In this document: one piece after another, positions 17,885 through 63,185 of the stretch
Position numbering within the stretch: the first letter of the stretch is position 1
Layout of the letters: every line of letters starts with the position of its first letter
Source of the DNA: an uncultured Clostridia bacterium
GTDB taxonomy: Bacteria > CAYTYR01 > UBA6262
Length of the DNA stretch: 64,000 bases
Direction: 5' to 3'
Assembly: GCA_964441745.1 (NCBI GenBank)
Contig: CAYTYR010000003.1
Coordinates: 35,348-99,347 of the forward strand
Notes under the pieces: model-generated
Database searches by the model: none
Told to the model about the DNA's origin: nothing
The model's input: the letters and a program-made list of their open reading frames with translations, nothing else
Program-made: the position numbers and the translations under genes

Positions 17885-20535
17885 CTACAATAAATCTTCC
17901 ACTTTAGTCACCACTTTATACTCAACATCCTTAAATTCCTTAAAATGGGCTTCCCCGCACTTGATCTTCATTCTCTCTTCCGGATATAATTCATTCATTT
18001 CCCGGGTTGATTTCGTCTCCGCCACGAAATACAGCTTCTTCTCCCCTTTAAAGATCAAGGCCCAATCGGGGTTATAACTGCCCAAGGGCGTCTTTATCTT
18101 GAACCAGGCAGGGAGTTTTATGTAGAACTCAACATTATCGTTAGTCTCGCAATCACTGGCGAACCGTTTTTCCGGTTCGCTCATTGAATCTATAGAAATA
18201 TAATTAGCTATAGTTTTATCCTGCTTTGATACTTGATAGAGATTCTTTCTATATGCCTCCACCTCATTGTCTTCGAATAATCTCATCTCATATTCAATAC
18301 CATTGATCTTTTCATATTTTATCCCATCCACAATCATTTCGGCTAAGACATTCTTTATCTCCGCTGTCGCCATATCCATGAACATTTGAGGATTTCTCAA
18401 GATATCAACCAGCCGGCCAGAGCCTTTCAATATCCGCAAGATCGTTGATCGGGTTAATTCGGTTCTCGATTGTATATATCCCAGCACATCCGGGACATCA
18501 AACAAAGGATTTTCAACCTGAGTTATTCCCACACCCTTCTGCACTCCGGTTAATCCTTCTCTGACGACCTGCATTCCCGTTTTAACATACTTAATGATCG
18601 GCTTGCGCACCGCAGGCATATTCTTTATCTCTTTGACCGACGCTTCTATAAGCTTTTCAGTATCGAAATCAATATTATAAGTTGTTTTATGTTTTATTTT
18701 GTCCCATAGCTCCTTAAACTTCTCATCAAACTGGTAATTTTTTCTTAACCGCACTTTCACCCTTTCGTTCTTATTTCTTATCCTCTCCTTGAATTCGACT
18801 CCGCAATCCTCTTCCATTTCTTTCTGTAACTCTGCAGCGAATTCCTCGTAACTTTCATTGGCAATAACCGTCAACCTGTTAGTGTTCTTATCCTGGATCC
18901 TGTCGCCTTGCTGATCCACGCAAAGCCGCAATCCCCTGCCAATTTCCTGCCTCTTTTTCATCTCGGATCTCGTCTCGTTCAGAGTGCATATCTGGAAGAC
19001 ATTGGGGCTATCCCAGCCTTCTCTTAAAGCAGAATGACTGAATATAAATCTTAGAGGATTATTAATATCGAGAAGTCGTTCTTTATCCTTCATTATCAAC
19101 CTGTATGTATCATCATCTGCCAGGGTTTCCCTGGATTCAGAAGAATCTTTAAAGATCCCTTTTTTGTCCTGCGCGAAATAGCCGTTATGAACGACTTCAG
19201 ATTGAAAAGGGATAACTCCCTGATATTCTTTTTTCCCCGCTATTTCCTTGAATATTTCTTCAAACCAGAGGGCAAATTTTCCTTTCGCAGGGTTCCCCGC
19301 CTCATCATAACTGCGGTAGTTGGCTACCCTGTCTATAAAGATAAGCGAAAGGACTTTTATTCCTTTTTCTTTATATTTTTTCTCTTTCTGGAAGTGTTCT
19401 TCCACAGTCTTCCTGATCTGGACCTTCATAACTTCATCCAGCAGGCCGCCCCTCTGCTCTCCAACCGCCAGTATCTCTCCATTGGAGAGCTCAACCTTGC
19501 CTTCCCCCACGTCTATGGCATTAATAATATATCCTTCCCGGTAAAGCTCTCTTTTATTTGATTTTTCATACAAGTCATCTCCAACCTCAACATTCACTGT
19601 TTTCCTGATTATTCCATTCTCGCCAAGGGTATCCAAGCTTATTTTTGCCAGAGTCTTTGTTTTCTTGGCCTTAATATCTTCAACCTTCAGAAAAGCCTGA
19701 TTACTGCTATTCTCGGCAAAAATTGAATCAACTTCTATCTGTTTGACTAATCCCAGATCATAAGCTTTGACAGGATTAAGGCTGTAAACAAGGTTATACA
19801 GATTTGCGTGAGTAGCAGAATAGCGGAGAGTGCAGGCAGGATTCAGATTATCTATGGCCTTTTTCCTTATTTCCGTTTCCATGTTCTGAGGTTCATCAAC
19901 AATGACTATGGGATTCGTCGCCTGTATGAATTCTATCGGTTTCTTCCCGGTTAGTTTATCATTAAACTTATTAATAACATTCACGTCCTTGGCAAATGAA
20001 TCAATATTGATGACCAATATCTGAATGTTATTGTTTAGAGCGAAATTCCTTAAAAGGGATATTTTCCCCGGATCATACACGTTGAATGTCGCCGGTTGTT
20101 TCTCATACAAAGACTGGAAATGGTCATGGGTTATCTCAAGGTTCTTAATAACTCCTTCTCTTATGGCGATGCTGGGGACTACGATTATAAACTTTTTGAA
20201 TCCATAGCGTTTATTAAGCTCATATATGGTCCGCAAATATACATAAGTCTTTCCTGTACCTGTCTCCATTTCCACTGAGAAATTAAGACCTTGCAGGTAT
20301 TCCGCTTCTTTGAGCCCATTTTTCCGCTGAATTGCCTGAAGATTTGCTAATATTTGCGCTTCTTCCAAAACTATCCCATTTCCAACACCGTTTTCAGACA
20401 GCATATAGCCGCTATTGGGAGACAAAGAAAATTCATAATCGCTCTTATTTAAAGGCTGCCCCTCGAACAGGTCAACTATGGAGTTAATAGCGTCTATCTG
20501 ATACTGCTGGTTTGGATCAAAATGGAGTTTCATTA
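17885..20535 (-). CDS. res: Type III restriction enzyme, Res subunit (helicase-nuclease)
   Basis: Walker A METGTGKTYVY, motif II VIVDEPQNM, C-terminal nuclease region; real start is ATG at 20533-20535 (MKLHFDPNQQYQ) with AAGGA SD, not the upstream in-frame start at 20668. Confidence 0.9.
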
Positions 20536-20543
20536 TTATCCTT

Positions 20544-21275
20544 CTATTTAAACATCCGCAGATAATCTTTCTGTGTTTCCCTGACCATACGGGCAATAAG
20601 ATCAACAAAATCCCGATCGTTTCCGTCTCGCGCTGTTTCCAAAGAAGCGATATATTCCTGCCTGACAATGGGCGGGATTATGGTTATAACATAACCTTCC
20701 TGCATTAAAATAGTGTTCATCAGCAGCCGCGCCACTCTGCCGTTACCATCCAGGAAAGGATGAATAAAAACAAATTCTTTATGAGCCAATGCCGCGAACT
20801 CCACCGGGTGTTTTTGCCGGCGCAGTCTGCCTAATTTTGGCGGCAATCGTTTCATCAACACTGGTAATTCCGCCGGTAAGGGCAAGGGATACTTGGAACC
20901 TGTAATAATAGCTCTTACCTTCCGATACTCACCGGCATTTTCCCGATCTATTCGATAATAGAAAAGCCGGTGCAAATCTTTTATCCCGCGTTCGGTTACG
21001 GTTTTTTTCCTGGCCAGTTCATACATAAAGTCATAGGCTTCGCTATGCCCGGCTGCTTCGTAATGATCTCTTAATGGTTTACCGCCAATGGTAATACCGT
21101 CTTCAATAACCACCTTAGTCTCAGATTCTGTTAAGGAATTACCTTCAAGAGCGTTACTGGCATAGGTTAACCCTATGCGGAAATATTCTTTTGTTTGCTC
21201 TAACAAATGCTTATCCAAAGGCCGGCGCTTGTTTATCTCTGCCTGTAATTTATCTATTTCCTGATAAATAGTCAT
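20544..21275 (-). CDS. fic: Fic family protein
   Basis: 243 aa; canonical Fic motif HPFLDGNGRVARLL; AAGGAG SD 7 nt upstream; stop is 9 nt before the res ATG. Confidence 0.85.
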   Translation of the reverse strand: MTIYQEIDKLQAEINKRRPLDKHLLEQTKEYFRIGLTYASNALEGNSLTESETKVVIEDGITIGGKPLRDHYEAAGHSEAYDFMYELARKKTVTERGIKDLHRLFYYRIDRENAGEYRKVRAIITGSKYPLPLPAELPVLMKRLPPKLGRLRRQKHPVEFAALAHKEFVFIHPFLDGNGRVARLLMNTILMQEGYVITIIPPIVRQEYIASLETARDGNDRDFVDLIARMVRETQKDYLRMFK

Positions 21276-21288
21276 TACTTAGCTCCTT

Positions 21289-21336
21289 TCAAAGCTCTAT
21301 CTGATACTGCTGGTTTGGGTCAAAATGGAGTTTCAT
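21289..21336 (-). repeat. R2: duplicated copy of res 5' end forming a 15-codon mini-ORF (MKLHFDPNQQYQIEL)
   Basis: ATGAAACTCCATTTTGACCCAAACCAGCAGTATCAGATAG matches the real res start (20497-20535) with one mismatch by eye, then diverges into the Fic RBS. Confidence 0.7.
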
Positions 21337-21369
21337 TATTTATTTCTCCAACTATTTCCAATATTCTTA

Positions 21370-21398
21370 TTGACATCATGGCGCCAATGCTGTAATAT
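21370..21398 (+). promoter_or_regulatory. consensus-like sigma70 promoter (TTGACA-17 bp-TAATAT)
   Basis: TTGACA at 21370-21375, 17-bp spacer, TAATAT at 21393-21398, in a 400-bp noncoding gap and pointing antisense to the RM operon. Confidence 0.5.
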
Positions 21399-21404
21399 TA
21401 TATT

Positions 21405-21550
21405 AGGCAATAATGCTAATAATTTTGGATCGGGGTGTCCCCGGTCGGTATTAATGAGCGGTAAGTCCGTTGTGAATTGTTCCAAGTGTTCCCTTCCATA
21501 GGTTGGCTATAGCTTGGACGCAACAAGTTCACAGGGCGCGCTCATTTTTT
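21405..21550 (+). ncRNA. candidate structured small RNA of about 145 nt, antisense to the Type III RM operon
   Basis: downstream of the promoter; local hairpin GATCGGGG-TGT-CCCCGGTC (21427-21446); long-range pairing AATGAGCG (21452-21459) with CGCTCATT (21538-21545) followed by T-run 21545-21550; only coding potential is a 15-aa ORF without SD. Confidence 0.35.
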
Positions 21551-21672
21551 ATTTTATGGCAATTTTGCCTTCATTACCCTTCCCATCACATGACCATCAC
21601 ATAAGATTTGCTTTATTTATCAACACATTTTGCCATTTAACAAATTCACACAAACTTACAATCACATAAACC

Positions 21673-23130
21673 TTAAGACCATATTGGTATATACTTAGCA
21701 TACTTTCTCGATTTATTCTCTGGATCAAAATCTTTAATTAATCTTGCTTTGATGGTATCAGCTATTATTCTTGAAACTATTGAGTAATTCTTTTCATCTA
21801 TTTTAAATCTTTCTCTTAGAGACTGATTGGTCATGTTACTATTTGAGACATATTTTAAGCAACAATGTTGATAACATGCTCTTATTTTATCATCTTTATC
21901 CATCTGCTTTAGAGTTTTATAAGAATACATAATAACCTTCAGAAAATTATCTCCCTCAATGAATTTCGGCGCAGGTAATTGATACTCCTCTACTTTATCA
22001 ATAACTTTATCAATACCGCTCCCTCTTTCTTCACAAATACCTGCCCTCCGCATAAAAGAAGCAACTTTCTCATTTCTTGACTGAGGATGATGGTCAATAA
22101 ACCTTAAAGTGCTAATTAACGGCTTTCCCGGATTAGTAATTTCAATTCTATCGTTAAATATTTCAATCATAGGCCCAGTGCCAATTTCATTAAAATCCTG
22201 ATGGATTAATGCATTGGCTACTAATTCTCTTATTGCTATTTCAGGATACATTTTTACTTCTTTTCTAAATGCTCTTCCTATTTCTTCATTTGCTTGCAAG
22301 TTATCATTAATATAATCAATTAATCCCTCAAATCCATTGGCATATCCTTTAGCCCCAATTTGTTCTTTTTTTGTATGTAATCTGTCATTACCCTTATATA
22401 TAATAACCCTGATTGCCTTCCTATTTAATCTTTCAAAATACGAAAGATTATTGGCTATCAAAATAGTGCCCAAATTAGTAATACTATGGCTATTTATTTC
22501 TTTAAGAATAAATCTTTCTCCTTCTAAATGTTTTAAAATAGCACTTTTATCAGCGGGTAAATTCGACTTCAATATCCTAAAATAACCTGGATAATCTAAT
22601 AATTCAAGTATTTTATCTTCATCCAATTCTTTCGCGGCTATGTCTTTTTCAAAACTATACGCTAGTGTTTTATTCCATATTTTTCTCGCTTTTTCTGGCA
22701 AGTCCTTTAATTTCTTTTTATAACTGCCAACTCTAATATACTCTGCCCCTTTAAAACCTACTGGCGTATTATGAGTAGCATTGATTTCAAACATTACAAC
22801 AGGAACCCCTTCATACTCAAATTCATTAATTCTGAAATCAATTCTCGGACTTAGCAATCTAATTAACCAATTTTCTAATTCCTCATTACCGTTTTTTGTT
22901 TGGCTAGGCTTAAAATCTGTACCAACTACTTTATGGGTCTGATCTTCAATGCCAAAAACAAAATATCCATAGCTTCTATTATGTAAGCAAGCTGAATTAG
23001 ATAAAGCAGATATATACTCCCCAATTTCATCAAGTGAGCAACTTAAATTTTGCTTGAATTCCACCCACTCTGTTTCCTTTGGCAGCATTATAAGTTCTTT
23101 TAATTTATTCTTAAGATCATCTGTGTTCAT
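21673..23130 (-). CDS. AlbA_2 (Schlafen-like) plus HATPase_c_4 domain protein, putative nucleic-acid-binding ATPase/regulator
   Basis: 485 aa; N-terminal ETEWVEFKQ...FVFGIEDQTHKVVG resembles AlbA_2; C-terminal ALIHQDF...IEIFNDRIEITNPG resembles HATPase_c_4; start overlaps R1 mini-ORF stop (ATGA). Confidence 0.65.
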   Translation of the reverse strand: MNTDDLKNKLKELIMLPKETEWVEFKQNLSCSLDEIGEYISALSNSACLHNRSYGYFVFGIEDQTHKVVGTDFKPSQTKNGNEELENWLIRLLSPRIDFRINEFEYEGVPVVMFEINATHNTPVGFKGAEYIRVGSYKKKLKDLPEKARKIWNKTLAYSFEKDIAAKELDEDKILELLDYPGYFRILKSNLPADKSAILKHLEGERFILKEINSHSITNLGTILIANNLSYFERLNRKAIRVIIYKGNDRLHTKKEQIGAKGYANGFEGLIDYINDNLQANEEIGRAFRKEVKMYPEIAIRELVANALIHQDFNEIGTGPMIEIFNDRIEITNPGKPLISTLRFIDHHPQSRNEKVASFMRRAGICEERGSGIDKVIDKVEEYQLPAPKFIEGDNFLKVIMYSYKTLKQMDKDDKIRACYQHCCLKYVSNSNMTNQSLRERFKIDEKNYSIVSRIIADTIKARLIKDFDPENKSRKYAKYIPIWS

Positions 23131-23180
23131 TTTATTTCCTTTGATAGATATCGCTGGTTCGGATCAAAATGGAGCTTCAT
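23127..23180 (-). repeat. R1: diverged copy of res 5' end forming a 17-codon mini-ORF (MKLHFDPNQRYLSKEIK)
   Basis: ATGAAGCTCCATTTTGATCCGAACCAGCGATATCTATC resembles res start; its TGA overlaps the ATG of the 485-aa ORF. Confidence 0.65.
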
Positions 23181-23200
23181 GAAGCAGCCATATATTTTCC

Positions 23201-25084
23201 TTATATGGTTCTGAATTCTATTCCTGCGTCTTTCATTTGCAGGACGGTATTTGTTTTAAGCTTGTCATTGCCGGCAAATAAGGAATCCAGGCACAGGCAT
23301 TTGGCAGGCTTTTGTTTGACTATTTCCTTGATCAGCTTGCTGTTTACCTCAGATAGAATAACAACCATTTCGCCGTTATTTACCGTATAAATCGGCGCAC
23401 CGTCTATTTTTTCTTCTTTCGCGACCGTATTCAGGCCGTAACCGGTTTTCAGAAGTATTTCCCATAGCATATTGGTTTGTTTTGCCTTAGGTTTAACCGG
23501 ATACTCAAAAGCATCCATCTGCTTCTTAAGTTCAGCTTCCTCTGTTATGACATCATTTCGCCAAATCTTAAAATTGGATAGCTTCAGCTTATATACTTTG
23601 AATCCCAGGTCTATTTCTTTAGGCCGCTCTTCCTTGCCTATCTGTTTAATTGCTCTGCGAATTCTTTCTTTGGCGATATCTGCTATGGTTTTATACCCGG
23701 CCTTATAAGCTTCTGTTTCTGCTTCAGTTTTTTCCGGAAGCTGGACGCAGATAAACTTTCTATTCCCCCCATCTTCCTTGTTTAAATCTAAAACAGCATG
23801 AGCAATAGTTCCGGACCCAGCAAAAAAATCAAGAATAATATCATCAGATTCAATACCGGTTATTAATTCTATTAGTTTTTTCATTAATCTTACAGGTTTA
23901 GGTGTATCAAAATACGATTCACCATTAAAAATTTCTTTAATCTCTCGTTTTGACTCCTGATTATCTCCAACTATATCTCTTGTCCATAGAGTTATGGGAG
24001 TAACTGAAGTTTTTACCTCTGATAAAAATCTTTTTTGTCTCGGAATATTGTCTCCATACTCTCCAAACCATATACGATTATCTTTTAGAAGCTCACTAAA
24101 TTTTCTCTCACTAACAACCCAACATCTTCCTTTTGTCGGAAAAACTTTCCTTCCGCTTGGTAAAATTATGGGATATAGTTTTTCCTTGATTTCTGGCCCC
24201 ACCGTTAAATCACCTGATGACCAAGGGCCTCTTAAATCATTATCAGGATTATGATATCTTGAATTAGTTTCTTCTGTTCTTTTTAACCCCAGCACACCTA
24301 GTTTTTCTACATTTTTTGCATAAACTAAAATATAATCATGACTCGTTGAAAATGTGGTTTTTAAATTAATGGGCGAAAATGCTTTCTCCCAAATTATACT
24401 TGCCACAAAATTCTCTTCTCCGAATATCTCATTCATTAACAGCCTGAGATTATGGACTTCATTGTCATCTATGGAAACAAAAATAACTCCGTCTTCACAG
24501 AGCAGATTTCTGGCGAGGAACAGTCTTGGATACATCATGGAAAGCCAATTGGAATGGAAATGGCCATTTTCTTTGTTATTTTTTCTAAATAGCCCTTCCT
24601 TCAACAGATAGCCTTCTTCGTCCTTTTCCCCTATTCTTTTCAGATAGTCTTCTTTGGACTCGGAAAACCGGTCAGGATAGATAAAATTGTCATTGCCGGT
24701 ATTGTAGGGCGGATCGATATAGATCATCTTGATCTTGCCATAGTAGGCTTTCTGCAGGACTTTCAAGACTTCGAGGTTTTCCCCTTCAATGAATACATTG
24801 CCTGTTTTATCAAAATTGACGGATTCTTCAGGGCAAGGAGCCAATGTAGCAGTTGTAGGAGTTTGCAGGACCTTAAAAGCTTCGGACTTACCGGCCCAAT
24901 TAAGGACATATCGCTCATTCTCCAGGGATAGCTCTTCACCTAAAGTAAGCTTGAGCTTCTCCTGATCTATTTTCCCTTCGCTGAATACCTCTGGAAAAAG
25001 TTCTTTTAGTTTCTTTACTTTATCCTTTTTCACATCTACCGATTTTCCATCCATTCCTGTCTCCTCTATTACAAACTTATTCAA
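23201..25084 (-). CDS. mod: Type III R-M Mod subunit, N6-adenine DNA methyltransferase
   Basis: 627 aa; DPPY motif in MIYIDPPYNTG; AdoMet-binding DFFAGSGT; overlaps upstream Fic gene by 8 nt. Confidence 0.9.
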   Translation of the reverse strand: MNKFVIEETGMDGKSVDVKKDKVKKLKELFPEVFSEGKIDQEKLKLTLGEELSLENERYVLNWAGKSEAFKVLQTPTTATLAPCPEESVNFDKTGNVFIEGENLEVLKVLQKAYYGKIKMIYIDPPYNTGNDNFIYPDRFSESKEDYLKRIGEKDEEGYLLKEGLFRKNNKENGHFHSNWLSMMYPRLFLARNLLCEDGVIFVSIDDNEVHNLRLLMNEIFGEENFVASIIWEKAFSPINLKTTFSTSHDYILVYAKNVEKLGVLGLKRTEETNSRYHNPDNDLRGPWSSGDLTVGPEIKEKLYPIILPSGRKVFPTKGRCWVVSERKFSELLKDNRIWFGEYGDNIPRQKRFLSEVKTSVTPITLWTRDIVGDNQESKREIKEIFNGESYFDTPKPVRLMKKLIELITGIESDDIILDFFAGSGTIAHAVLDLNKEDGGNRKFICVQLPEKTEAETEAYKAGYKTIADIAKERIRRAIKQIGKEERPKEIDLGFKVYKLKLSNFKIWRNDVITEEAELKKQMDAFEYPVKPKAKQTNMLWEILLKTGYGLNTVAKEEKIDGAPIYTVNNGEMVVILSEVNSKLIKEIVKQKPAKCLCLDSLFAGNDKLKTNTVLQMKDAGIEFRTI

Positions 25085-55530: not shown

Positions 55531-56703
55531 CTACTTTTTTTTGTATAATGGTGACATTTCCCTGAGTTTTTTAACAATTCTTGGCAATGCTTCTAATAAA
55601 TATTCAACATCTTCATCAGTATTAAGACGGCCCAGGCTGAAACGAAGACTGCTATGCGCCACTTCCGGGCTTACTCCCAGCGCTTTGATCACATGGGAAG
55701 GCTCTAGTGAGCTGCTGGAACAAGCTGAACCAGTTGAAGCAGCGATCCCCTCCAGGTCCAGGTTAATCAACATTGATTCACCTTCTATATATTTTATAGT
55801 CACATTAACATTGTTTGGCAGCCGTTTAGTAGGATGACCGTTTAATTCTGATTCATCGATCTTTTCCAAAATTCCTTTGATCAGCTTGTCACGCAAGATA
55901 GTCACGTGCTGGTGGCGTTCCTGTTTTTCCTGTATCGCCATTTCTACTGCTTTGCCAAATCCTACTATACCGGGGACATTTTCAGTAGACGCGCGACGCC
56001 TTCTTTCCTGTTCCCCCCCATGCAGAAACGGCAGGATGCGCACGCCTTTCCTGATATACAGTAAGCCCACTCCTTTAGGACCGTATAATTTATGCGCGCT
56101 GGCGCTGAGCAGATCAATATTAAGTTTCTCTACATCCAGGTCCAGGCTGCCAAAGGTCTGTACAGCATCGGTATGAAAATAAATCCCTTTCTCCCTGGCT
56201 ACTTTCCCGATGCCGGCGATCGGTTCAATCGTGCCGACCTCGTTATTAGCGTGCATTACGGAGATTAAGATAGTCTGCGGCGTAATTGCTTTAATAATTG
56301 CTTCCAGATCCACCAGACCATATTTATCAACCGGTATATAGGTAACCTTGGCGCCGCGGTGTTTTTCCAGGAACTTACAAGTTTCCAAGACTGCATGATG
56401 TTCGATAGTCGTAGTAATAATATGATTGCCCTTCTTAGCATTAGCCTCAAAGACACCGATTAAGGCGAAATTATCTGCCTCTGTGCCACCACTGGTGAAA
56501 ACAATCTCCTCACTCTTGGCATTAATATATTTAGCGATCAAATCCCGAGCCTGGGTGACAGCAGCCTGCGCTTCCTGGCCAAAAGTATGAAGACTGGACG
56601 GATTACCGTAAACCGTGTCAAAATAGGGCTGTATCGCCTTAATTACTTCCGGATGCACCGGAGTAGTCGCGGCATAATCAAAATAACGTCGTTTAACATC
56701 CAT
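55531..56703 (-). CDS. iscS: cysteine desulfurase (NifS/IscS family)
   Basis: 390 aa; PLP-lysine context SASAHKLYGPKGVG and active-site Cys loop ASTGSACSS. Confidence 0.85.
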   Translation of the reverse strand: MDVKRRYFDYAATTPVHPEVIKAIQPYFDTVYGNPSSLHTFGQEAQAAVTQARDLIAKYINAKSEEIVFTSGGTEADNFALIGVFEANAKKGNHIITTTIEHHAVLETCKFLEKHRGAKVTYIPVDKYGLVDLEAIIKAITPQTILISVMHANNEVGTIEPIAGIGKVAREKGIYFHTDAVQTFGSLDLDVEKLNIDLLSASAHKLYGPKGVGLLYIRKGVRILPFLHGGEQERRRRASTENVPGIVGFGKAVEMAIQEKQERHQHVTILRDKLIKGILEKIDESELNGHPTKRLPNNVNVTIKYIEGESMLINLDLEGIAASTGSACSSSSLEPSHVIKALGVSPEVAHSSLRFSLGRLNTDEDVEYLLEALPRIVKKLREMSPLYKKK

Positions 56704-56864
56704 AGTTTCACCTCATATACCCAATTTTTGCCTTAGAACGTGAGCACCGAGACGAGAGAGGCTAAGCGCTTTTCGAAGTAAAAATTTGAAAGCATACTCA
56801 CAGCAGTATGGTTGAGAATTTTTACACAGAAAAGAGCTAGCATCTTTCGTCGAATGCCACGAGC

Positions 56865-57281
56865 CTAAGGTAAATTTTGGGTTAAATCATGCAAAGTTCG
56901 TTCGTTCAATACTTTATTTACTGCTTCCTGTAATTCCACCCAAACCGGCCTGGTCAGGCATTCCTTGATCTTACTGCAGCACTTATCCCTGGATTGCTTA
57001 GTACAAGAGATCAGCTGGATCGGGCCTTCCACCGCTTTCACGATATCCAATATCTTGATCATTTTTGGATCTTTTTTCAAGACAAATCCGCCCTTGGCGC
57101 CTCTGGTACTTTCTACTAATCCATTCCTTCTCAGTTTAACCAGCAGTTGCTGCAAATAAAATTTCGGAATATGTTGTTTCTGATAAATCTCTTGGGCTGA
57201 TACCGGGGCCTGGCCATAACTCTGGCCCAGCTCTACCATAGCTAATAATCCATAGCGGCAACGGGTTGATATCTTCAGCAT
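56865..57281 (-). CDS. Rrf2-family transcriptional regulator (IscR-like)
   Basis: 138 aa; N-terminal wHTH (RYGLLAMVEL) and three Cys in C...CC pattern. Confidence 0.8.
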   Translation of the reverse strand: MLKISTRCRYGLLAMVELGQSYGQAPVSAQEIYQKQHIPKFYLQQLLVKLRRNGLVESTRGAKGGFVLKKDPKMIKILDIVKAVEGPIQLISCTKQSRDKCCSKIKECLTRPVWVELQEAVNKVLNERTLHDLTQNLP

Positions 57282-57346
57282 TTCTTTTTATCCCTCTTGT
57301 CACAGTATACTATATATGACTTATTTTGTCAAGTATTAAATAAAAA

Positions 57347-57799
57347 CTAAAGATAGTACATTTTCAGCTCGTGAGAGCGGCGTTTCTCTTTAGCTTTCTT
57401 ACACAAGTAAGCAAAGGTAGTTTTATCAACAATCCCTTCGGTCATGATCCGTACTTTATCCCAAATTGGCCGGAATACACAGTGAGATTCTTCAGTACAC
57501 TTCTTATAGCAACTCTTACTTACACAGGTAATAGGAGAGATCGGCCCTTCCATGAACCTGATAATTTCACCTATCCTGATCTTTTTTGGTTCTTTGGCCA
57601 GATAGTACCCGCCTTTTGCTCCCCTTTGGCTGTTGACATATCCTGGTCCTTTTAAAGACAGCAGTATTTGCTCTAGATACTTTAAGGGGATATCCTGCCG
57701 CCGAGCGATATCCTGGATCTTGACCAAGCCTTGGTCATAATGCAGGGCCAAGTCCAGAATTGCTTTTAAGGCATAATCACCGCGAAAAGATATTTTCAT
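57347..57799 (-). CDS. Rrf2-family transcriptional regulator (second copy, adjacent to cysK)
   Basis: 150 aa; wHTH (DYALKAILDLA...AKGGYYL) with Cys residues. Confidence 0.8.
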   Translation of the reverse strand: MKISFRGDYALKAILDLALHYDQGLVKIQDIARRQDIPLKYLEQILLSLKGPGYVNSQRGAKGGYYLAKEPKKIRIGEIIRFMEGPISPITCVSKSCYKKCTEESHCVFRPIWDKVRIMTEGIVDKTTFAYLCKKAKEKRRSHELKMYYL

Positions 57800-57805
57800 C
57801 GTCCC

Positions 57806-58726
57806 TCACCACACACTTAAGTAACGTTCTCCAGTGTCACATAAAATAGTAACCACTGTTTTATCTTTTCCCAATTGTTCAGCTACCTGCAACGCCGCAA
57901 AAACATTAGCGCCAGAGGAAATGCCGGCCAATAGTCCTTCTTCCCGGGCCAGCCGTGAAGCAGTAGCAAAAGCATCTTCATCCTGTACTTTGATTATTTC
58001 ATCAATAATTTTCCGGTTCAGGACTCCCGGTACAAACCCGGCGCCAATACCTTGTATTTTATGCGGACCCGGCTGCCCGCCTGACAAAACAGGACTATTA
58101 GCCGGTTCTACTGCTATTACCCTGATTTTTCTGGCAATATCTTTCTTTAAAGCTTCACCTACGCCAGTTAGCGTCCCTCCGGTACCGACAGCAGCCACAA
58201 AAGCATCAATATTACCTTTAGTTTGGGCTATGATCTCCTGAGCAGTAGTCAAACGGTGAATCTCCGGATTGGCCTGATTATTAAACTGCATCGGCATATA
58301 ATAATCAGAATGGGCTTCTGCTATTTCTTTGGCTTTTCTTACTGCCCCGCCCATACCTTCTGCTCCTGGAGTTAATAAAAACTCGGCGCCATACGCAGTC
58401 AGGAGTTTACGACGCTCTATACTCATAGTTTCCGGCATAGCCAGTATTAACTTATATCCCTTGACCGCGGCGACCAAAGCCAGACCGATACCCGTATTAC
58501 CGCTAGTAGGTTCGATAATAGTCCCGCCTGGTTTCAGCCAGCCTTTTTTCTCTGCTTCCTCGATCATCGCCAGGCAGATCCGGTCCTTAACACTGCCTCC
58601 GGGATTGAAATATTCCACTTTAACTAGCACTTTAGCATCGTCTGACCCGGTAAGCTTGTTAAGTTGTACTAATGGAGTATCCCCGATCAGCCCCAGGACA
58701 TTTTTTGCGATTTCCGGTTTACCCAT
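57806..58726 (-). CDS. cysK: cysteine synthase A (O-acetylserine sulfhydrylase)
   Basis: 306 aa; PLP lysine in [19 protein letters not shown], Gly-rich GTGGT loop. Confidence 0.9.
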
Positions 58727-58789
58727 AATAACTCCTTCGGAGTAAATTCTAAATCCGAATATCTAAATCCTAATCTGTGAAATCGTTTT

Positions 58790-59203
58790 TTAATCAAATC
58801 TAATTTCCATTGCTTTGACGGGACAAACTTTGACACACATTTCACAGGCGATACAATGGTTGCTATTAAAAGTAACCTGTCGCGTTTTCTTATCCAGTAC
58901 TAAGGCCGGCGTTGGGCATACTGAAATACATAAACCACACTGGGTGCAGCGCTCTTCATTTTTGCTGATATTTTGGCCTAATTGTTCAATAGTCACTCCC
59001 GCTTTGGTCAGAAATTCTATACCCTTATTATAGTTTTCTTTCTGGCCTTTTAACTCCAGGGACATGATCCCTTCCTCGGAAGGAGTAACCTGGGCTTTAA
59101 GAATATTAAATTGCAGGTTATAATCCTTTACCAGATGATAAACAAATGGTTTCTCCACCAAATTTTTCGGAAATCTTAATACTACTCTTCTACAAATAGC
59201 CAT
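58790..59203 (-). CDS. NIL-domain plus 2x[4Fe-4S] ferredoxin protein
   Basis: 137 aa; two CxxCxxCxxxCP motifs (CTQCGLCISVCP, CIACEMCVKVCP) after an N-terminal NIL-like domain. Confidence 0.7.
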   Translation of the reverse strand: MAICRRVVLRFPKNLVEKPFVYHLVKDYNLQFNILKAQVTPSEEGIMSLELKGQKENYNKGIEFLTKAGVTIEQLGQNISKNEERCTQCGLCISVCPTPALVLDKKTRQVTFNSNHCIACEMCVKVCPVKAMEIRFD

Positions 59204-59250
59204 ATATCCTCCTTACCGGGGGTTGACTACACAGATTATAATATATCTTA

Positions 59251-60483
59251 TTAAATTGTCGGGGCAACTGGTCTTTCTTTTAAGAGTTTAGCCGCGACCC
59301 CATTATCTGGGCCAGGCAGGTTTTGCACTGGCTTGGCTAATTCAAAACTTCCTTTTTTGATCCATTCCTTTAACGTTGCCGCAATCTCCCTGGCCACTGA
59401 ATAGCTGGAAATCGGCGCCGTAGGGATTTTTTTGCCCTGTACCTCTATCTCTCCGCTAAACAATTGGGCATAGTTGACTTCCCCAAGACTTCCCCCTACA
59501 TTATTAGGATAATTCTTGCCATAATCAATAACTTGACACCAGAGATCCTGGTTTTTAACAGCTGTATATTGGCAAATCTCCTCATTCAGGATGGGTATAG
59601 GAACCCCAATGCCAACGGTCATAGTTGAACCATAGCCTAGAAAAGAACTCCCTCGTAAATATTTTGCGCTCATCTGTTTCAGGTCACCAATCACTGAAAG
59701 TGTCCCGGCGCCAGCCTGCGGCACGCCATTTTCTTTACGTTTTACAGATGGATTATGTTGAGTGCCATTCCAGGCTACATAACCAATTCCACCACCCAAG
59801 AAAATCCTGGTGCCAATACCTATCGTCTTGTAAAGTGGATCATTTAGTAATGGAGATAACTGCGCCGCACTGCAAAAATTGGCATTACCAAGATTTGGTT
59901 GCAAAACTCCCATATAGGTATAAATAATCTTATCCGTCAGGTTCACGGCGCAATTATAGTTCTGATAAGCATTGCGCGGGCTGAACAGAATAGCCTCGTT
60001 TATATCTCCAAGATTAATAAGAGTCTCCAACTTCTTCCGCGGATAGCAATCAGTCCCATAAGCGGTAGCCCTGAGCACCAGGTCCTTGCCACTTACCAAG
60101 TCTTCGATCACATGTCCGCCGCCATAGCTGAATTCACCAGGGAAAACTTTATTGCGGGGATCATCATCAGGAGTAGCGGTAGCTCCCAAATACACATCTA
60201 CCGCAGCCAAACCAGTATATACTGGCACTTCGTTTAAATAAGCATGCCCGCCTCCTAATTTAATACGCGGCGTAGAATGCCCAAAATTTAAAAAAGTACC
60301 GCTGGAACACATTGGCCCAAAAGTTCCGGTAGTGACCACATCCACTTCATAGGCAGCCTTTTTTAAACCCTTTTCCGCGACAATGTCGATTATTTCTTCA
60401 GCCGTCACTACTACTGCCTGCCCTTTTTTGATCTTTTCATTTATTTCTTCATAAGTCTTAGCCATAGCCCGAACTCCTTCCAA
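59251..60483 (-). CDS. DUF39 (COG1900) protein, putative sulfide-dependent homocysteine biosynthesis enzyme
   Basis: 410 aa; length and genomic pairing with NIL-ferredoxin fit the methanogen-type homocysteine biosynthesis pair; family assignment from memory. Confidence 0.6.
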   Translation of the reverse strand: MEGVRAMAKTYEEINEKIKKGQAVVVTAEEIIDIVAEKGLKKAAYEVDVVTTGTFGPMCSSGTFLNFGHSTPRIKLGGGHAYLNEVPVYTGLAAVDVYLGATATPDDDPRNKVFPGEFSYGGGHVIEDLVSGKDLVLRATAYGTDCYPRKKLETLINLGDINEAILFSPRNAYQNYNCAVNLTDKIIYTYMGVLQPNLGNANFCSAAQLSPLLNDPLYKTIGIGTRIFLGGGIGYVAWNGTQHNPSVKRKENGVPQAGAGTLSVIGDLKQMSAKYLRGSSFLGYGSTMTVGIGVPIPILNEEICQYTAVKNQDLWCQVIDYGKNYPNNVGGSLGEVNYAQLFSGEIEVQGKKIPTAPISSYSVAREIAATLKEWIKKGSFELAKPVQNLPGPDNGVAAKLLKERPVAPTI

Positions 60484-60586: not shown

Positions 60587-62086
60587 TTATTTCGTGCAGT
60601 GCACATCACAGATGTCATCCGGATTGACCGGAGAGGGTTTGCCGATCTTTTTATAATAATCATCGATCGCCGATTTCAGAGCCTGTTCCGCCAGGACCGA
60701 ACAATGCATCTTGACTGGCGGCAAGCCGCCCAAGGCTTCAGCGACCGCCTTATTGGAGATGACCAGCGCTTCGGGAATGGTTTTCCCCTTCACCATATCC
60801 GTGACCATCGAGCTGGTGGCAATCGCTGCCCCGCAATTGTGAACGGCAAAGCCTTTAACTAAATATGTATTTGGTTCAGAAGCAACCTGAAAATTATAAA
60901 CTTTTCCGCTGTAATCCAAGGTTTCAATTTTACGAATCGGCACTAAAAATTTTCGACCGTTAAAATGAACAAAACGATGATTTCTTTCCATTTTAAAAGA
61001 TACTAAATATTGCTCCGAATCTTTGAGTTTTCTGCCTTCAATTACACAGTTTGTTTTATAAATCTTCCTGATTGAACTAAAATTCCCACCCCTGGCTAAT
61101 ATTTCCTGGAGTTGAACAGCCAATAATTTCGACGTAGTTATCATCCTGTAAGTGTCGCTATTGTGAGTTCTTCTCTTATAGCTATCACCGTCACCAAGAA
61201 GGTATTTCTCTACTAGATGCCACTGCTTTTCAAAAGGCAAAGTAATGATCTCTTCCGCGAGTTTCTTATGGCATGCTAATTTTCCGCAATACTTGACTAA
61301 AAAGGAAACCAACTTCCTAGAGCAAATATATACTTCCGTTACATTATCTCTTGTTCTGGATTTCGCTTCCTTGCCGCAGAACTGACCCAATAGGTCTTTT
61401 GTTTCCCGGATCAGATCTGTTTCATTTTTATTGAACGCAAAAGCAACCGCGTTTCCTTTTGCTATGATATATCCTTCAGATAAATAATATCCCATAAGTT
61501 TCATTATGTCTACCGTAAAGAAAGGATTATCCTTAACTGTTTTGTTCACCGTAAATAATAGATAATCTCCAACTTTTAATTGATCTGCCCTGATAAAATC
61601 GGGATCGGTTCCAAGCAGCTCCTTTTTCCCCATCCGCAGCCAATCGCATTTCGGGCCAGATTTCCTGGCTCCTTTTACCTTTGTTCTTTGCAAGCATAAC
61701 ACCGGGTGATTCGGAGTTACGGCAAAAGCATTGTAAGGAGATACAAAGGGTTCGATGCAGCAGATTTTCCCGCAAAAATCCCGTGTATAAGTTTCCGCGA
61801 CTTCGGTCTGTTCGCCATTGCTGTTGATCACTGTTGCTCTCTTGGCGATATCGGGGACTCGCACCCAATCGCCTACACCGGCTACGACTTCCTCATTTGC
61901 CGGAAGACAACCAAAAGTCTTAAATTTGGCATCAGTGATAATACCATCTTTTACCTTTATATATAGCTCCATAATATCACCGCAGATCGCGTTACCCACA
62001 TGGCCGATGCCATCAGGGTTTTCCATTTCCCCGACATTGTGAGGATTACGGAAATGCTCCATTACTTTTTCACTATACTGACTCAT
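60587..62086 (-). CDS. iscU: Fe-S cluster scaffold IscU interrupted by an in-frame intein
   Basis: N-extein GNAICGDIMELYIKV...DAKFKTFG and C-extein CGAAIATSSMV...LPPVKMHCSVLAEQA together make a normal IscU; 358 aa inserted between. Confidence 0.8.
   Translation of the reverse strand: MSQYSEKVMEHFRNPHNVGEMENPDGIGHVGNAICGDIMELYIKVKDGIITDAKFKTFGCLPANEEVVAGVGDWVRVPDIAKRATVINSNGEQTEVAETYTRDFCGKICCIEPFVSPYNAFAVTPNHPVLCLQRTKVKGARKSGPKCDWLRMGKKELLGTDPDFIRADQLKVGDYLLFTVNKTVKDNPFFTVDIMKLMGYYLSEGYIIAKGNAVAFAFNKNETDLIRETKDLLGQFCGKEAKSRTRDNVTEVYICSRKLVSFLVKYCGKLACHKKLAEEIITLPFEKQWHLVEKYLLGDGDSYKRRTHNSDTYRMITTSKLLAVQLQEILARGGNFSSIRKIYKTNCVIEGRKLKDSEQYLVSFKMERNHRFVHFNGRKFLVPIRKIETLDYSGKVYNFQVASEPNTYLVKGFAVHNCGAAIATSSMVTDMVKGKTIPEALVISNKAVAEALGGLPPVKMHCSVLAEQALKSAIDDYYKKIGKPSPVNPDDICDVHCTK
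60836..61909 (-). mobile_element. intein with LAGLIDADG-type homing endonuclease domain, inserted in iscU
   Basis: starts with Cys directly after FKTFG, ends with His-Asn directly before the conserved extein Cys; internal LMGYYLSEGY and YLLGDGDSY blocks resemble LAGLIDADG motifs. Confidence 0.75.
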
Positions 62087-63185
62087 TTTTCCCCTCTGCT
62101 TTTTCTAATGGTATGGTGAAATAGAAGGTACTGCCCTTGCCCACTGTACTTTCTACCCACACCTTGCCTTGGTGATTTTCAATAATGTTTTTGACCAGGG
62201 TCAAACCCAATCCCAGTGATCCGCTTCTGAATTCAAAGGTCCCGGATGAATGCTGGTCATCAGATTTTATTTCATAAAAACTTTCAAAAATATTTTCAAA
62301 TTCATTTTCCGGGATCCCGATGCCGGTGTCGGCGATCTCAGCCTGGATCTTATCCGGGAACGTTTTGGTCCTGATCGTGATCTTTCCTTCATCTGGCGTG
62401 AATTTAATCGCGTTCATGATCAGGTTAGTCAAGACCTGGTTCATTTCCCGCCGGTTAAACTTAGCCAACGGTAAATTAGGGTCAAGCTCTAAGGCCAGCG
62501 CTTGTTTGCGCTTCTGCGCAAAAATCTCCATATCACCGTAAACCTCTTTGACCATATTATTTAAGTTGGCGTCATCCTTTTTTTCCAGTTTATCTTTTTG
62601 TTCAGTTTTAACCATATCCAGGATATTATCAATAGTTTGCAGGTAGCGATTGATAATTTCCTTGGCTTTGCCGCATTTTTGCTTAAATTCTTCTTCTTTG
62701 TTCTTGAACATACCCAGCTCAAAGAGGCTGATATACCCGTTAAGCACAGTTAAAGGGGTACGAAACTCATGGGAGGCTACGGAAATAAATTTAGACTTCA
62801 TTTTTTCTTTTTTTATCAGGTCCTGATGGGCTTTTTCCAAAGCGGCTTTGCCCCTATTTTCCAGCTGGACCAGGATATTGACTGTTAAGCCGATGATAAT
62901 AAAAATAATAAGCTGCAAAATATTATCTATCAGCCAGCTGGTCCCTAATTGCGCTGGCGGCGGCCAAATCCTTAACATGTAAAAAAAACTGCTGATAAAG
63001 GCTGCCGCGGTCACTCCGATCGGCCCCAGCTTAAAAGCGGCAAAAATGACCGGAATGTAATATAACTTACTGAAAACACTATCTAAAAAAATATTATCCT
63101 TAGGACTAAAGAAATGAAAAAATGCGATAATCGCTATAAAAATGAATAAGACGAAAAAATCAATGGTTACTTTTTTGTTTTTCAT
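62073..63185 (-). CDS. membrane-bound sensor histidine kinase
   Basis: 370 aa; N-terminal TM helices, H-box SVASHEFRTPLTVL, G-boxes DTGIGIP and GSLGLGLTL; overlaps iscU start by 14 nt. Confidence 0.8.
   Translation of the reverse strand: MKNKKVTIDFFVLFIFIAIIAFFHFFSPKDNIFLDSVFSKLYYIPVIFAAFKLGPIGVTAAAFISSFFYMLRIWPPPAQLGTSWLIDNILQLIIFIIIGLTVNILVQLENRGKAALEKAHQDLIKKEKMKSKFISVASHEFRTPLTVLNGYISLFELGMFKNKEEEFKQKCGKAKEIINRYLQTIDNILDMVKTEQKDKLEKKDDANLNNMVKEVYGDMEIFAQKRKQALALELDPNLPLAKFNRREMNQVLTNLIMNAIKFTPDEGKITIRTKTFPDKIQAEIADTGIGIPENEFENIFESFYEIKSDDQHSSGTFEFRSGSLGLGLTLVKNIIENHQGKVWVESTVGKGSTFYFTIPLEKAEGKNESV

What the first reader, a model, noticed from the sequence alone, without database searches (positions are those of the whole stretch)
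60836..61909. Intein with homing-endonuclease domain inserted at the conserved cysteine of IscU
The iscU ORF is 499 aa instead of about 140. The extra 358 aa begin with Cys right after FKTFG, end with His-Asn, and are followed by the conserved cluster-ligand Cys, which is the classical intein boundary pattern. Two LAGLIDADG-like blocks indicate a homing endonuclease. I am not aware of IscU as a standard intein host, so this may be an unusual insertion site, and splicing would have to precede Fe-S scaffold function.
Basis: partly seen in the sequence, partly recalled or inferred. Interest (0 to 1): 0.7.

Follow-up and report, generated by a model that had tools for sequence, protein, structure and literature searches.

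The report
Intein inside the IscU iron-sulfur scaffold
The gene for the iron-sulfur cluster scaffold IscU is interrupted, just before one of its cluster-binding cysteines, by a real self-splicing intein with a homing endonuclease; I found no paper describing this host site, yet it is common in uncultivated bacteria and archaea.

Summary
The ORF at 60587-62086 (minus strand, 499 aa) is a NifU/IscU-type scaffold. It carries a 358-aa insert (60836-61909) between FKTFG and the Cys that aligns with E. coli IscU Cys63.

The insert is a canonical class-1 intein:
- It has Cys1, a TxxH block B, terminal His-Asn and a Cys at +1.
- It has two intact LAGLIDADG motifs.
- The AlphaFold model (pLDDT 90) matches solved intein-homing endonucleases such as TliVMA, PI-SceI and PI-PkoII.

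It is not a one-off. At least 120 diverged database proteins (48-61% identical inteins) carry it at the same IscU site. They come from Omnitrophota, CPR bacteria and DPANN and other archaea.

The window's closest IscU relatives are 92-96% identical, syntenic and lack the intein precisely. Its presence is therefore sporadic, most simply explained by horizontal gain.

The nearest inteins in other hosts form separate sister groups. One sits before SufB Cys254 (the persulfide acceptor) and one before Cys46 of 2-oxoacid:ferredoxin oxidoreductase beta.

No paper on an IscU/NifU intein was found. Verdict: a new host and insertion site for a known kind of element. Splicing, endonuclease activity and any regulatory role are inferred, not shown.

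The parts
60587..62086 (-). iscU/nifU precursor ORF (499 aa plus stop): a Fe-S cluster scaffold interrupted by an intein
   Evidence: ORF list. Pfam NifU_N scores 150 bits in two stretches. NCBIfam TIGR03419 NifU_clost scores 190 bits against a cut-off of 187.9.
61910..62086 (-). N-extein, aa 1-59, ending in FKTFG. It contains the first ligand Cys35 and Asp37 (GNAICGD).
   Evidence: Alignment to E. coli IscU.
60836..61909 (-). Intein, precursor aa 60-417 (358 aa): a HINT splicing domain with a nested LAGLIDADG homing-endonuclease domain
61871..61909 (-). Intein block A (CLPANEEVVAGVG). Cys1 is the first nucleophile.
   Evidence: Cys1 is present in 120 of 120 family members and is invariant in alignment A2.
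61691..61732 (-). Intein block B (NAFAVTPNHPVLCL) with the TxxH motif (intein T65, H68)
   Evidence: T65, H68 and P69 are invariant in A2.
61463..61507 (-). LAGLIDADG motif 1 (block C), IMKLMGYYLSEGYII, with catalytic acidic residue Glu145 (intein numbering)
   Evidence: L138 G140 Y141 Y142 L143 E145 G146 are invariant. It aligns to PI-PkoII 'LLGYYVSEGY'.
61235..61288 (-). Endonuclease block D (CGKLACHKKLAEEIITLP) with invariant Lys215
   Evidence: A212 K215 L224 P225 are invariant. It aligns to the PI-PkoII 'CGVLAENKRIPEFVFTSP' region.
61178..61216 (-). LAGLIDADG motif 2 (block E), LVEKYLLGDGDSY, with catalytic Asp240
   Evidence: G239 D240 G241 are invariant. It aligns to PI-PkoII 'YFIGDGD'.
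60857..60907 (-). Intein block F (GKVYNFQVASEPNTYLV)
   Evidence: G335 V337 N339 P346 Y349 L350 are invariant. NCBIfam TIGR01443 intein_Cterm scores 17.5 bits against a cut-off of 15.6.
60833..60856 (-). Intein block G (KGFAVHN) plus the +1 Cys. This is precursor Cys418, equivalent to E. coli IscU Cys63, a cluster ligand.
   Evidence: H357 and N358 are invariant. The junction is [VA]HN|C in 120 of 120 members. Numbering was checked against E. coli iscU.
60590..60835 (-). C-extein, aa 418-499 (CGAAIATSS...KMHCS...ICDVHCTK). It carries ligands Cys418, His461 and Cys462.

Best explanation
This is a canonical (class 1) intein with a nested double-motif LAGLIDADG homing endonuclease. It is inserted in frame in the only iscU/nifU-type scaffold gene found in the window, directly in front of the second cluster-ligand cysteine (the equivalent of E. 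coli IscU Cys63).

Inferred mechanism:
1. The 499-aa precursor is translated.
2. Intein Cys1 makes a thioester with Gly59.
3. The ligand cysteine itself (Cys+1) attacks that thioester.
4. Asn358 cyclises and releases the intein.
5. An S-to-N shift yields a 141-aa IscU with the native FKTFG-CGAAIA sequence.

Only the spliced protein has its three cysteine ligands on one contiguous polypeptide.

The freed intein is expected to cut intein-free iscU alleles at the sequence that spans the insertion point. Repair would then copy the intein in (homing).

The window's lineage most likely acquired the element horizontally. Its nearest relatives have an empty site, and the closest known intein is only 61% identical.

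What is shown: sequence anatomy, fold, family-wide conservation, empty sites and distribution. What is inferred: splicing, endonuclease activity and the direction of the gain.
For: Boundaries and host
- Insert coordinates and boundaries.
- The exteins hit NifU_N and TIGR03419 in two stretches.
- The spliced product aligns with E. coli IscU, with C37/C63/C106, D39 and H105 all matched.
- These ligand columns are invariant in 105 aligned sequences.

Intein features
- LAGLIDADG_3 and intein_Cterm score above their curated cut-offs.
- The endonuclease domain matches PI-PkoII by sequence (E = 1.5e-9).
- The AF2 model has pLDDT 90.2 and pTM 0.82.
- Its best PDB matches are the TliVMA intein (E = 5.8e-20), PI-SceI, PI-PkoII, PI-PfuI and I-DmoI. 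The exteins match A. fulgidus IscU (TM 0.85, rmsd 0.9).

Family
- 180 database clusters match the intein. The best 120 all contain NifU_N plus LAGLIDADG_3.
- All 120 share the same junctions, with intein lengths of 356-366 aa.
- Blocks A-G are conserved.
- The window copy departs from consensus at only 2 of 93 columns that are at least 90% conserved, which is the family median. It therefore shows no decay.

Empty sites
- 141-aa alleles are 92-96% identical to the window's exteins.
- They lie in the same gene order.
- They are 84-86% identical at nucleotide level, and the intein is absent to the base.
- Intein-bearing IscUs have exteins only 44-82% identical to the window's.

Not an artefact
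- The identical protein is found on independent assemblies.
Against: - No experiment shows splicing or DNA cleavage.
- The general Pfam Intein_splicing model scores only 20.2 bits, below its cut-off of 35.8. The NCBIfam scan at E<=1 listed no N-terminal intein model. The splicing domain is therefore divergent.
- Block F carries Asn339 and Pro346 where, from my memory of the block consensus, many inteins have Asp and His. Both residues are invariant in the family, so they are probably tolerated, but the mechanism may differ in detail.
- Intein GC (0.40) is within about one standard deviation of the window's genes (0.441 +/- 0.036). Composition therefore gives no independent sign of foreign origin.
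- A single precise loss in the ancestor of the sampled intein-free relatives would also explain the distribution.
Confidence: 0.9

Rival explanations
1. The intein splices but has been retained, or co-opted, as a conditional switch. Because Cys1 and Cys+1 (a cluster ligand) are both thiols next to the other IscU ligands, oxidation, persulfidation or metal binding would block splicing. That would gate production of active scaffold after translation, as reported for the M. tuberculosis SufB intein. Homing may be secondary or lost.
For: - The M. tuberculosis SufB intein is inhibited by oxidants through a Cys1-Cys+1 disulfide (PMC8529194).
- The P. abyssi MoaA intein is trapped by a disulfide (PMC10663303).
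- The IscU intein's nearest relatives in other hosts sit before SufB Cys254, the persulfide acceptor, and before OFOR-beta Cys46.
- Extra near-invariant cysteines occur in the IscU clade (intein C88 and C196).
- The gene overlaps a histidine-kinase gene and lies near Rrf2 regulators and a NifS-like gene.
Against: - Nothing in the sequence demonstrates regulation.
- Cys1/Cys+1 is the commonest intein nucleophile pair.
- Inteins target conserved active-site residues in general because those sites give stable endonuclease targets.
- The endonuclease catalytic residues are strictly conserved, as expected for a selfish, still mobile element.
- Close relatives do without the intein.
Confidence: 0.15
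2. The intein was inherited vertically from an old ancestor and precisely lost in the sampled relatives. It was not recently gained by horizontal homing into the window's lineage.
For: - The IscU-intein tree roughly follows broad host groups: archaea, then CPR, then Omnitrophota-like bacteria.
- The window's intein sits on a long branch with no close donor (61% best identity).
- Composition is unremarkable.
Against: - At least six distinct intein-free lineages share the window's clade-specific IscU tail ...ICD[EV]HCTK and its synteny.
- Intein-bearing IscUs have much more distant exteins, 44-82% identical.
- Precise deletion of an intein is rare without an intein-free donor allele (general knowledge of the homing cycle).
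Confidence: 0.3
3. The insert is a dead or non-splicing HINT-type insertion, so this iscU copy is a pseudogene or a protein with a permanent extra domain.
For: General splicing-domain profiles score below threshold, and block F is non-consensus.
Against: - All catalytic positions (C1, T65, H68, H357, N358, C+1) are intact and are invariant or near-invariant across the family.
- There are no frameshifts or stops in 358 codons.
- The copy shows only median divergence at conserved columns.
- The insert separates the ligand cysteines of the only IscU found in the window.
Confidence: 0.04

Closest known systems
SufB (Pps1) inteins, including the studied M. tuberculosis SufB intein
   Same: - The host is also a Fe-S cluster assembly scaffold.
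- Both have Cys1 and Cys+1, and the intein is about 358-359 aa with a LAGLIDADG domain.
- The SufB inteins found here are the closest relatives in another host: 33-39% identity over the full length, E down to 1e-74.
- They share the CLPxxE start and the GFAVHN end.
- Their site, HY[IV]EG|C...|CTAP, is the E. coli Cys254 position.
- The M. tuberculosis intein has a 359-aa length, a 235-aa C-extein and a conserved His at -5 (PMC8891592). These fit that same site by inference.
   Different: - The host protein and insertion site differ.
- IscU and SufB inteins form separate monophyletic groups.
- I could not obtain the M. tuberculosis sequence, so whether it belongs to this exact clade was not tested.
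Archaeal intein-homing endonucleases with solved structures (TliVMA, PhoVMA, PI-SceI, PI-PkoII, PI-PfuI)
   Same: They share the two-part architecture of a HINT domain plus a nested LAGLIDADG domain. They are the top Foldseek matches (E from 5.8e-20 to 7e-13). The PI-PkoII endonuclease domain is also detectable by sequence.
   Different: Sequence identity is only 11-17%, the hosts differ (V-ATPase, DNA polymerase), and the window's intein is more compact (358 aa against 360-537).
Inteins in 2-oxoacid:ferredoxin oxidoreductase beta subunits of DPANN archaea (found here; I know of no description)
   Same: They belong to the same intein clade at about 40% identity. The junction is SGIG|CLPxxE...GF[VA][VT]HN|CGSK. 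The +1 Cys aligns with Cys46 of S. tokodaii OFOR beta, 5B46_B.
   Different: The host is different, and only 7 of the 80 loci returned were of this type, labelled Aenigmatarchaeota, Micrarchaeota or simply archaeon. That Cys46 is a [4Fe-4S] ligand rests on my memory of the structure paper and was not checked here.
Redox-trapped intein of P. abyssi MoaA
   Same: It is an intein in an oxygen-sensitive Fe-S enzyme, with catalytic Cys1 close to other cysteines (PMC10663303).
   Different: No sequence relationship was tested, and regulation of the IscU intein is only a hypothesis.

Membership tests
Intein (class 1, canonical protein splicing element) | Nucleophile (Cys/Ser/Thr) as first residue | tested here: met
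   Cys60 of the precursor is intein Cys1. It is Cys in 120 of 120 homologues.
Intein (class 1, canonical protein splicing element) | Block B Thr-x-x-His | tested here: met
   TPNH at intein residues 65-68. T65 and H68 are invariant in A2.
Intein (class 1, canonical protein splicing element) | C-terminal His-Asn followed by a Cys/Ser/Thr at +1 | tested here: met
   The junction reads GFAVHN|C. It is [VA]HN|C in 120 of 120. TIGR01443 is above its cut-off.
Intein (class 1, canonical protein splicing element) | Block F consensus residues (Asp at F:4, His at F:13, as I recall the consensus) | tested here: inconclusive
   Asn339 and Pro346 occupy those positions. Both are invariant in the IscU family and are also present in the related SufB inteins. 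The consensus is recalled from memory.
Intein (class 1, canonical protein splicing element) | HINT fold with N- and C-termini brought together | tested here: met
   The AF2 model has pLDDT 90.2. Its best PDB matches are intein structures.
Intein (class 1, canonical protein splicing element) | In-frame insertion at a conserved host site, with colinear intein-free homologues | tested here: met
   141-aa alleles, 92-96% identical and syntenic, lack exactly the 1074 bases.
Intein (class 1, canonical protein splicing element) | Demonstrated protein splicing | not testable with these tools
   This needs expression or proteomics.
LAGLIDADG homing endonuclease (two-motif, monomeric) | Two LAGLIDADG motifs, each ending in a catalytic acidic residue | tested here: met
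   GYYLSEG (Glu145) and LLGDGD (Asp240), both invariant. Pfam LAGLIDADG_3 scores 33.7 bits against a cut-off of 22.5.
LAGLIDADG homing endonuclease (two-motif, monomeric) | Endonuclease fold | tested here: met
   Foldseek matches I-DmoI, I-Tsp061I and the endonuclease domains of PI-SceI, PI-PkoII and PI-PfuI. Sequence match to PI-PkoII has E = 1.5e-9.
LAGLIDADG homing endonuclease (two-motif, monomeric) | Site-specific cleavage of the intein-free allele | not testable with these tools
   This needs a biochemical assay. Candidate target sequences are available from L003, L004 and L089-L092.
IscU / NifU N-terminal-domain Fe-S scaffold (host protein) | Three conserved Cys plus Asp and His around the cluster site, and the family profile above its cut-off | tested here: met
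   C35, D37, C418, H461 and C462 align with Ec C37, D39, C63, H105 and C106. TIGR03419 scores 190 bits against 187.9. The extein fold matches 4EB5_C with TM 0.85.
SufB (Pps1) intein allele | Insertion in SufB before the Cys254-equivalent | tested here: not met
   The host here is IscU. The IscU and SufB inteins are homologous, but each group is monophyletic.
Bacterial intein-like (BIL) / non-splicing Hint domains | Located in variable, non-conserved proteins; often lack the +1 nucleophile or the C-terminal Asn; no endonuclease (as I recall the definition) | tested here: not met
   The insert sits in a highly conserved site, has Asn358 and Cys+1, and carries an endonuclease domain.

The most novel reading that the evidence does not exclude
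One clade of LAGLIDADG inteins (CLPxxE...GFAVHN) has specialised on Gly|Cys sites where the +1 cysteine handles sulfur or an Fe-S cluster. The three hosts are unrelated: IscU Cys63, SufB Cys254 and OFOR-beta Cys46. In these hosts splicing would respond to redox state, persulfide or cluster occupancy. The intein would then act as a post-translational gate on Fe-S cluster biogenesis in anaerobes, not only as a selfish element.
Probability: 0.12. Interest if true: 0.75.

Novelty: new member of a known kind. Interest (0 to 1): 0.5.

Why it matters
IscU is the central scaffold of the ISC/NIF Fe-S assembly route. An intein whose +1 nucleophile is itself a cluster ligand means that no functional scaffold exists until splicing has happened.

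This adds a second Fe-S scaffold, after SufB, to the list of intein hosts. The IscU, SufB and OFOR-beta inteins share ancestry, yet each colonised its site once. That makes a clean natural case of ectopic site switching by a homing endonuclease.

The family spans bacteria (Omnitrophota, CPR and others) and DPANN and other archaea, so it is a marker of gene flow between these uncultivated groups.

In practice, current annotation pipelines call these genes 'hypothetical' or plain scaffold proteins. A compact 358-aa Cys/Cys intein with many natural variants could also be useful in protein engineering.

If splicing proved to be redox- or sulfur-responsive, it would parallel the M. tuberculosis SufB intein and give a testable link between inteins and Fe-S homeostasis.

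Tried and rejected
- **Literature.** Searches for intein with IscU, NifU, 'iron-sulfur cluster assembly scaffold' or Omnitrophica returned nothing relevant. The Novikova 2016 survey does not mention IscU or NifU in its text, and its supplements are not held. Topilina 2015 (PMC4547236) is not held.
- **M. tuberculosis SufB intein sequence.** I could not obtain it. The Panda-lab paper contains no junction sequence. The link to the SufB clade found here therefore rests on the lengths and on the His at -5.
- **Composition as a sign of foreign origin.** Rejected. Intein GC is 0.40 against a gene mean of 0.441 +/- 0.036.
- **Co-conversion tract.** No obvious signal in extein DNA next to the junction.
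- **Organism name.** Cluster look-ups gave only 'bacterium'. MnmG relatives at 87-89% identity are labelled 'bacterium' or 'Elusimicrobia bacterium'. The next named ones, Aerophobetes and Omnitrophota, are only about 63% identical. The phylum stays uncertain, and the window's genome was not among the species representatives scanned (best intein match 59%).
- **Co-occurrence of alleles.** The intein-free alleles examined come from samples other than those carrying the intein-bearing one. Co-occurrence was not shown.
- **Second intein or second IscU.** Neither is present in the window.
- **OFOR Cys46 as a cluster ligand.** The literature search did not confirm this. Only the alignment to 5B46_B was verified.
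Full report
**1. The observation**

The minus-strand ORF 60587..62086 encodes 499 aa. Residues 1-59 end in FKTFG. Residues 60-417 (358 aa, CLPANE...GFAVHN) correspond exactly to window 60836..61909. Residue 418 is the Cys of CGAAIATSS.

Pfam finds NifU_N in two separated stretches (150 bits) and LAGLIDADG_3 above threshold (33.7 bits against 22.5). PT-HINT and Intein_splicing score below their thresholds. NCBIfam gives TIGR03419 (NifU_clost) at 190 bits against a cut-off of 187.9. It also gives the intein C-terminal model TIGR01443 above its cut-off, plus weak hits to the intein parts of several intein-containing 'exception' models.

The conceptually spliced 141-aa protein aligns with E. coli IscU. 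Precursor C35, D37, C418, H461 and C462 correspond to Ec C37, D39, C63, H105 and C106. These columns are invariant in an alignment of 105 intein-bearing and intein-free homologues.

The same protein is encoded on two independent Logan assemblies and on an NCBI contig of 121,858 bp. It is therefore not an assembly artefact.

**2. Anatomy of the insert**

All classical blocks can be placed, and all are conserved in the family:
- Block A: CLPxxE, with Cys1.
- Block B: TPxHP, with T65 and H68 invariant.
- LAGLIDADG motif 1: M-x-L-x-GYYLSEGY, with Glu145 invariant.
- Block D: invariant Lys215.
- LAGLIDADG motif 2: Y-x-x-GDGD, with Asp240 invariant.
- Block F: G-x-VYNFQV-x-x-EPN-x-YLV.
- Block G: KGFAVHN, followed by Cys.

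Block F carries Asn339 and Pro346 where, as I recall the consensus, many inteins have Asp and His. Both are invariant here and also occur in the related SufB inteins. I treat this as a family trait and not as damage.

By sequence, the endonuclease domain matches PI-PkoII (2CW7, E = 1.5e-9), with both LAGLIDADG motifs and block D aligned.

An AlphaFold2 model of the whole precursor, built on 105 sequences, has mean pLDDT 90.2 and pTM 0.82. Its best PDB matches are the TliVMA intein (E = 5.8e-20), PI-SceI, PI-PkoII, PhoVMA and PI-PfuI, followed by free-standing LAGLIDADG enzymes such as I-DmoI. The two exteins together superpose on A. fulgidus IscU (4EB5_C) with target TM-score 0.85 and rmsd 0.9.

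The window copy differs from the family consensus at only 2 of 93 strongly conserved intein columns (F for Y, A for S). That is the median for the family, so there is no sign of decay.

**3. It is a family**

A search with the intein alone found 180 database clusters. The best 120 (48-61% identity, full coverage) are all proteins of 437-624 aa that carry NifU_N plus LAGLIDADG_3. The few that are named are called Omnitrophica proteins, 'NifU-like protein' or 'hypothetical protein'.

All 120 have the insert at the same place: T[FLYM]G|C...[VA]HN|C. Intein lengths are 356-366 aa.

An exhaustive HMMER search of 1.84 billion representatives gave 3735 hits at E <= 1e-3 and 31 at E <= 1e-30.

A scan of one genome per species found 443 stretches that encode a relative. 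Among the best 80 loci I classified:
- 31 IscU inteins, from records labelled Omnitrophota, Caldiserica, Armatimonadota, 'Planctomycetia', CPR/Patescibacteria, several DPANN archaeal groups, Methanobacteriota and Thermoplasmatales.
- 42 SufB inteins.
- 7 inteins in the beta subunit of 2-oxoacid:ferredoxin oxidoreductase.

**4. Relatives in other hosts**

The SufB inteins sit at HY[IV]EG|CLPxxE...GFAVHN|CTAP. In E. coli SufB the corresponding sequence is SYIEG-C254-SAP. Cys254 is the accepted persulfide acceptor from SufE (PMC13228346).

The OFOR-beta inteins sit at SGIG|C...|CGSK. The +1 Cys aligns with Cys46 of S. tokodaii OFOR beta, 5B46_B. From memory this is a [4Fe-4S] ligand, but that was not confirmed here.

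In a neighbour-joining tree of 104 inteins, the IscU (57), SufB (40) and OFOR (7) groups are each monophyletic. Mean identity is 52-63% within groups and 37-40% between them. The simplest reading is one colonisation of each site followed by spread within that site.

The published M. tuberculosis SufB intein is 359 aa, with a 252-aa N-extein, a 235-aa C-extein, a conserved His at -5, Cys1 and Cys+1 (PMC8891592). This fits the same SufB site: P0248 also has a 235-aa C-extein and His at -5. I could not obtain the M. tuberculosis sequence to test whether it belongs to the clade.

More distant relatives sit before other cysteines, including the first Cys of a CxxCxxC ferredoxin motif.

**5. Empty sites and history**

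The proteins most similar to the window's exteins are 141-aa, intein-free IscUs at 92-96% identity. Four were traced to contigs with the same gene order: Mfd, two SurA-like, PdxA, RsmA, histidine kinase, IscU, HcyBio, NIL-ferredoxin, CysK, Rrf2.

At nucleotide level they are 84-86% identical to the spliced window gene, and almost all differences are synonymous. The 1074 bases are absent to the base. They share the clade-specific C-terminal tail ...ICD[EV]HCTK, which only 2 of 120 intein-bearing IscUs have.

By contrast, the exteins of intein-bearing IscUs are only 44-82% identical to the window's, and the closest intein is 61% identical.

MnmG from the window has relatives at 87-89% labelled only 'bacterium' or 'Elusimicrobia bacterium'. 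The nearest named phyla, Aerophobetes and Omnitrophota, are at about 63%. The host therefore appears to lie outside the groups where the intein is common.

I conclude that presence is sporadic and most likely reflects horizontal gain by homing from an unsampled donor. A single precise loss in the ancestor of the sampled relatives cannot be excluded. Composition does not help: intein GC is 0.40, exteins 0.48, and window genes 0.441 +/- 0.036.

**6. Mechanism**

The following is inferred from the established class-1 pathway summarised in PMC8891592:
1. Cys1 undergoes an N-to-S shift at Gly59-Cys60.
2. The thioester is transferred to Cys418, the future cluster ligand.
3. Asn417 (intein Asn358) cyclises.
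4. An S-to-N shift gives FKTFG-CGAAIA.

Until then the ligand Cys is separated from Cys35 by 358 residues in sequence and is chemically engaged in splicing. Scaffold function must therefore follow splicing.

The released intein is predicted to cleave intein-free iscU across the ...TTTGG[CT]|TG[CT]GG... junction. The strict conservation of both catalytic acidic residues, of block D Lys and of overall length across sequences only about 50% identical argues that the endonuclease has been under selection. Activity of this particular copy is untested.

**7. Context**

The iscU start overlaps the upstream histidine-kinase gene by 14 nt (62073-62086). Downstream lie HcyBio, a NIL-4Fe-4S ferredoxin, CysK, two Rrf2 regulators, a NifS-like desulfurase, a small NifU-C protein and NadA. 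No second IscU and no second intein are present in the window.

**8. Comparison, novelty and score**

This is a member of a well-known kind of element, the intein with a LAGLIDADG homing endonuclease, in a host and site for which I found no description. NCBIfam has intein 'exception' models for some hosts, but none for IscU appeared among the hits.

The sequences themselves have been public for years and are numerous. What is new is the recognition, not the data.

The added value is threefold:
- A second Fe-S scaffold is now known as an intein host.
- There is a three-host clade whose +1 residues are sulfur- or cluster-handling cysteines.
- There is a clear presence/absence contrast between near relatives.

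A regulatory role, such as redox- or persulfide-gated splicing as reported for M. tuberculosis SufB (PMC8529194) and P. abyssi MoaA (PMC10663303), is attractive but unsupported here. I give it about 0.12-0.15.

Overall interest is 0.5.

Noticed in passing
P0241 (638 aa) and P0026 (624 aa), database IscU homologues: Some IscU genes carry two inteins. Besides the Cys63-site intein, a mini-intein of about 150 aa without an endonuclease sits before the first ligand cysteine (VGNPV|CVVEG...LHN|CGDIM). IscU therefore has at least two insertion sites, both at ligand cysteines.
   Followed up: partly
L035-L086 (SufB loci) and L040, L041, L045, L053, L055, L056, L070 (OFOR-beta loci): The same intein clade occupies the site before the SufB Cys254-equivalent (persulfide acceptor) and the site before the OFOR-beta Cys46-equivalent. 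Each host group is monophyletic in an NJ tree.
   Followed up: yes
P0261 (583 aa): An IscU/NifU intein at the same site begins with Ser instead of Cys (WRTFG|SLIADE...GISFHN|CGSAIA). This host has a long C-terminal extension.
   Followed up: no
window 21451-21548 (+): A DUF3800-V RNA (Rfam RF02964, 71.5 bits against a gathering score of 37.4) is the only Rfam hit in the window.
   Followed up: no
window 17885-25084 (-): This looks like a defence island with low GC. It holds a type III restriction Res-like helicase-endonuclease (17885-20668), a Schlafen/AlbA_2 plus HATPase_c_4 gene (21673-23130, GC 0.31) and an N6/N4 DNA methylase (23201-25084, GC 0.38).
   Followed up: no
window 62073-62086: The iscU start codon region overlaps the end of the upstream histidine-kinase gene (62073-63185) by 14 nt. 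The same overlap exists in the intein-free relative L003, and a 4-nt overlap in L004, L005 and L091, which suggests co-transcription of a sensor kinase with the Fe-S scaffold.
   Followed up: partly
window 60590-60616 (C-terminal tail of IscU): The tail ...NPDDICDVHCTK contains an extra Cys-x-x-His-Cys. It is specific to the window's clade: 14 of the 120 nearest IscUs have it, against 2 of 120 intein-bearing ones. It could be an additional metal-binding or sulfur-relay site.
   Followed up: partly
window 55531-60483 (-): The sulfur-metabolism neighbourhood downstream of iscU comprises HcyBio (59251-60483), a NIL-domain 4Fe-4S ferredoxin (58790-59203), CysK (57806-58726), two Rrf2 regulators (57347-57799 and 56865-57281) and a NifS-like aminotransferase (55531-56703), followed by a small NifU-C protein and NadA.
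   Followed up: partly
P0364, P0331 (database proteins): More distant relatives of this intein sit before the first Cys of a ferredoxin-type CxxCxxC motif (DYGR|C...VVHN|CVFCGFCI). This is another case where the +1 residue is an Fe-S ligand.
   Followed up: no
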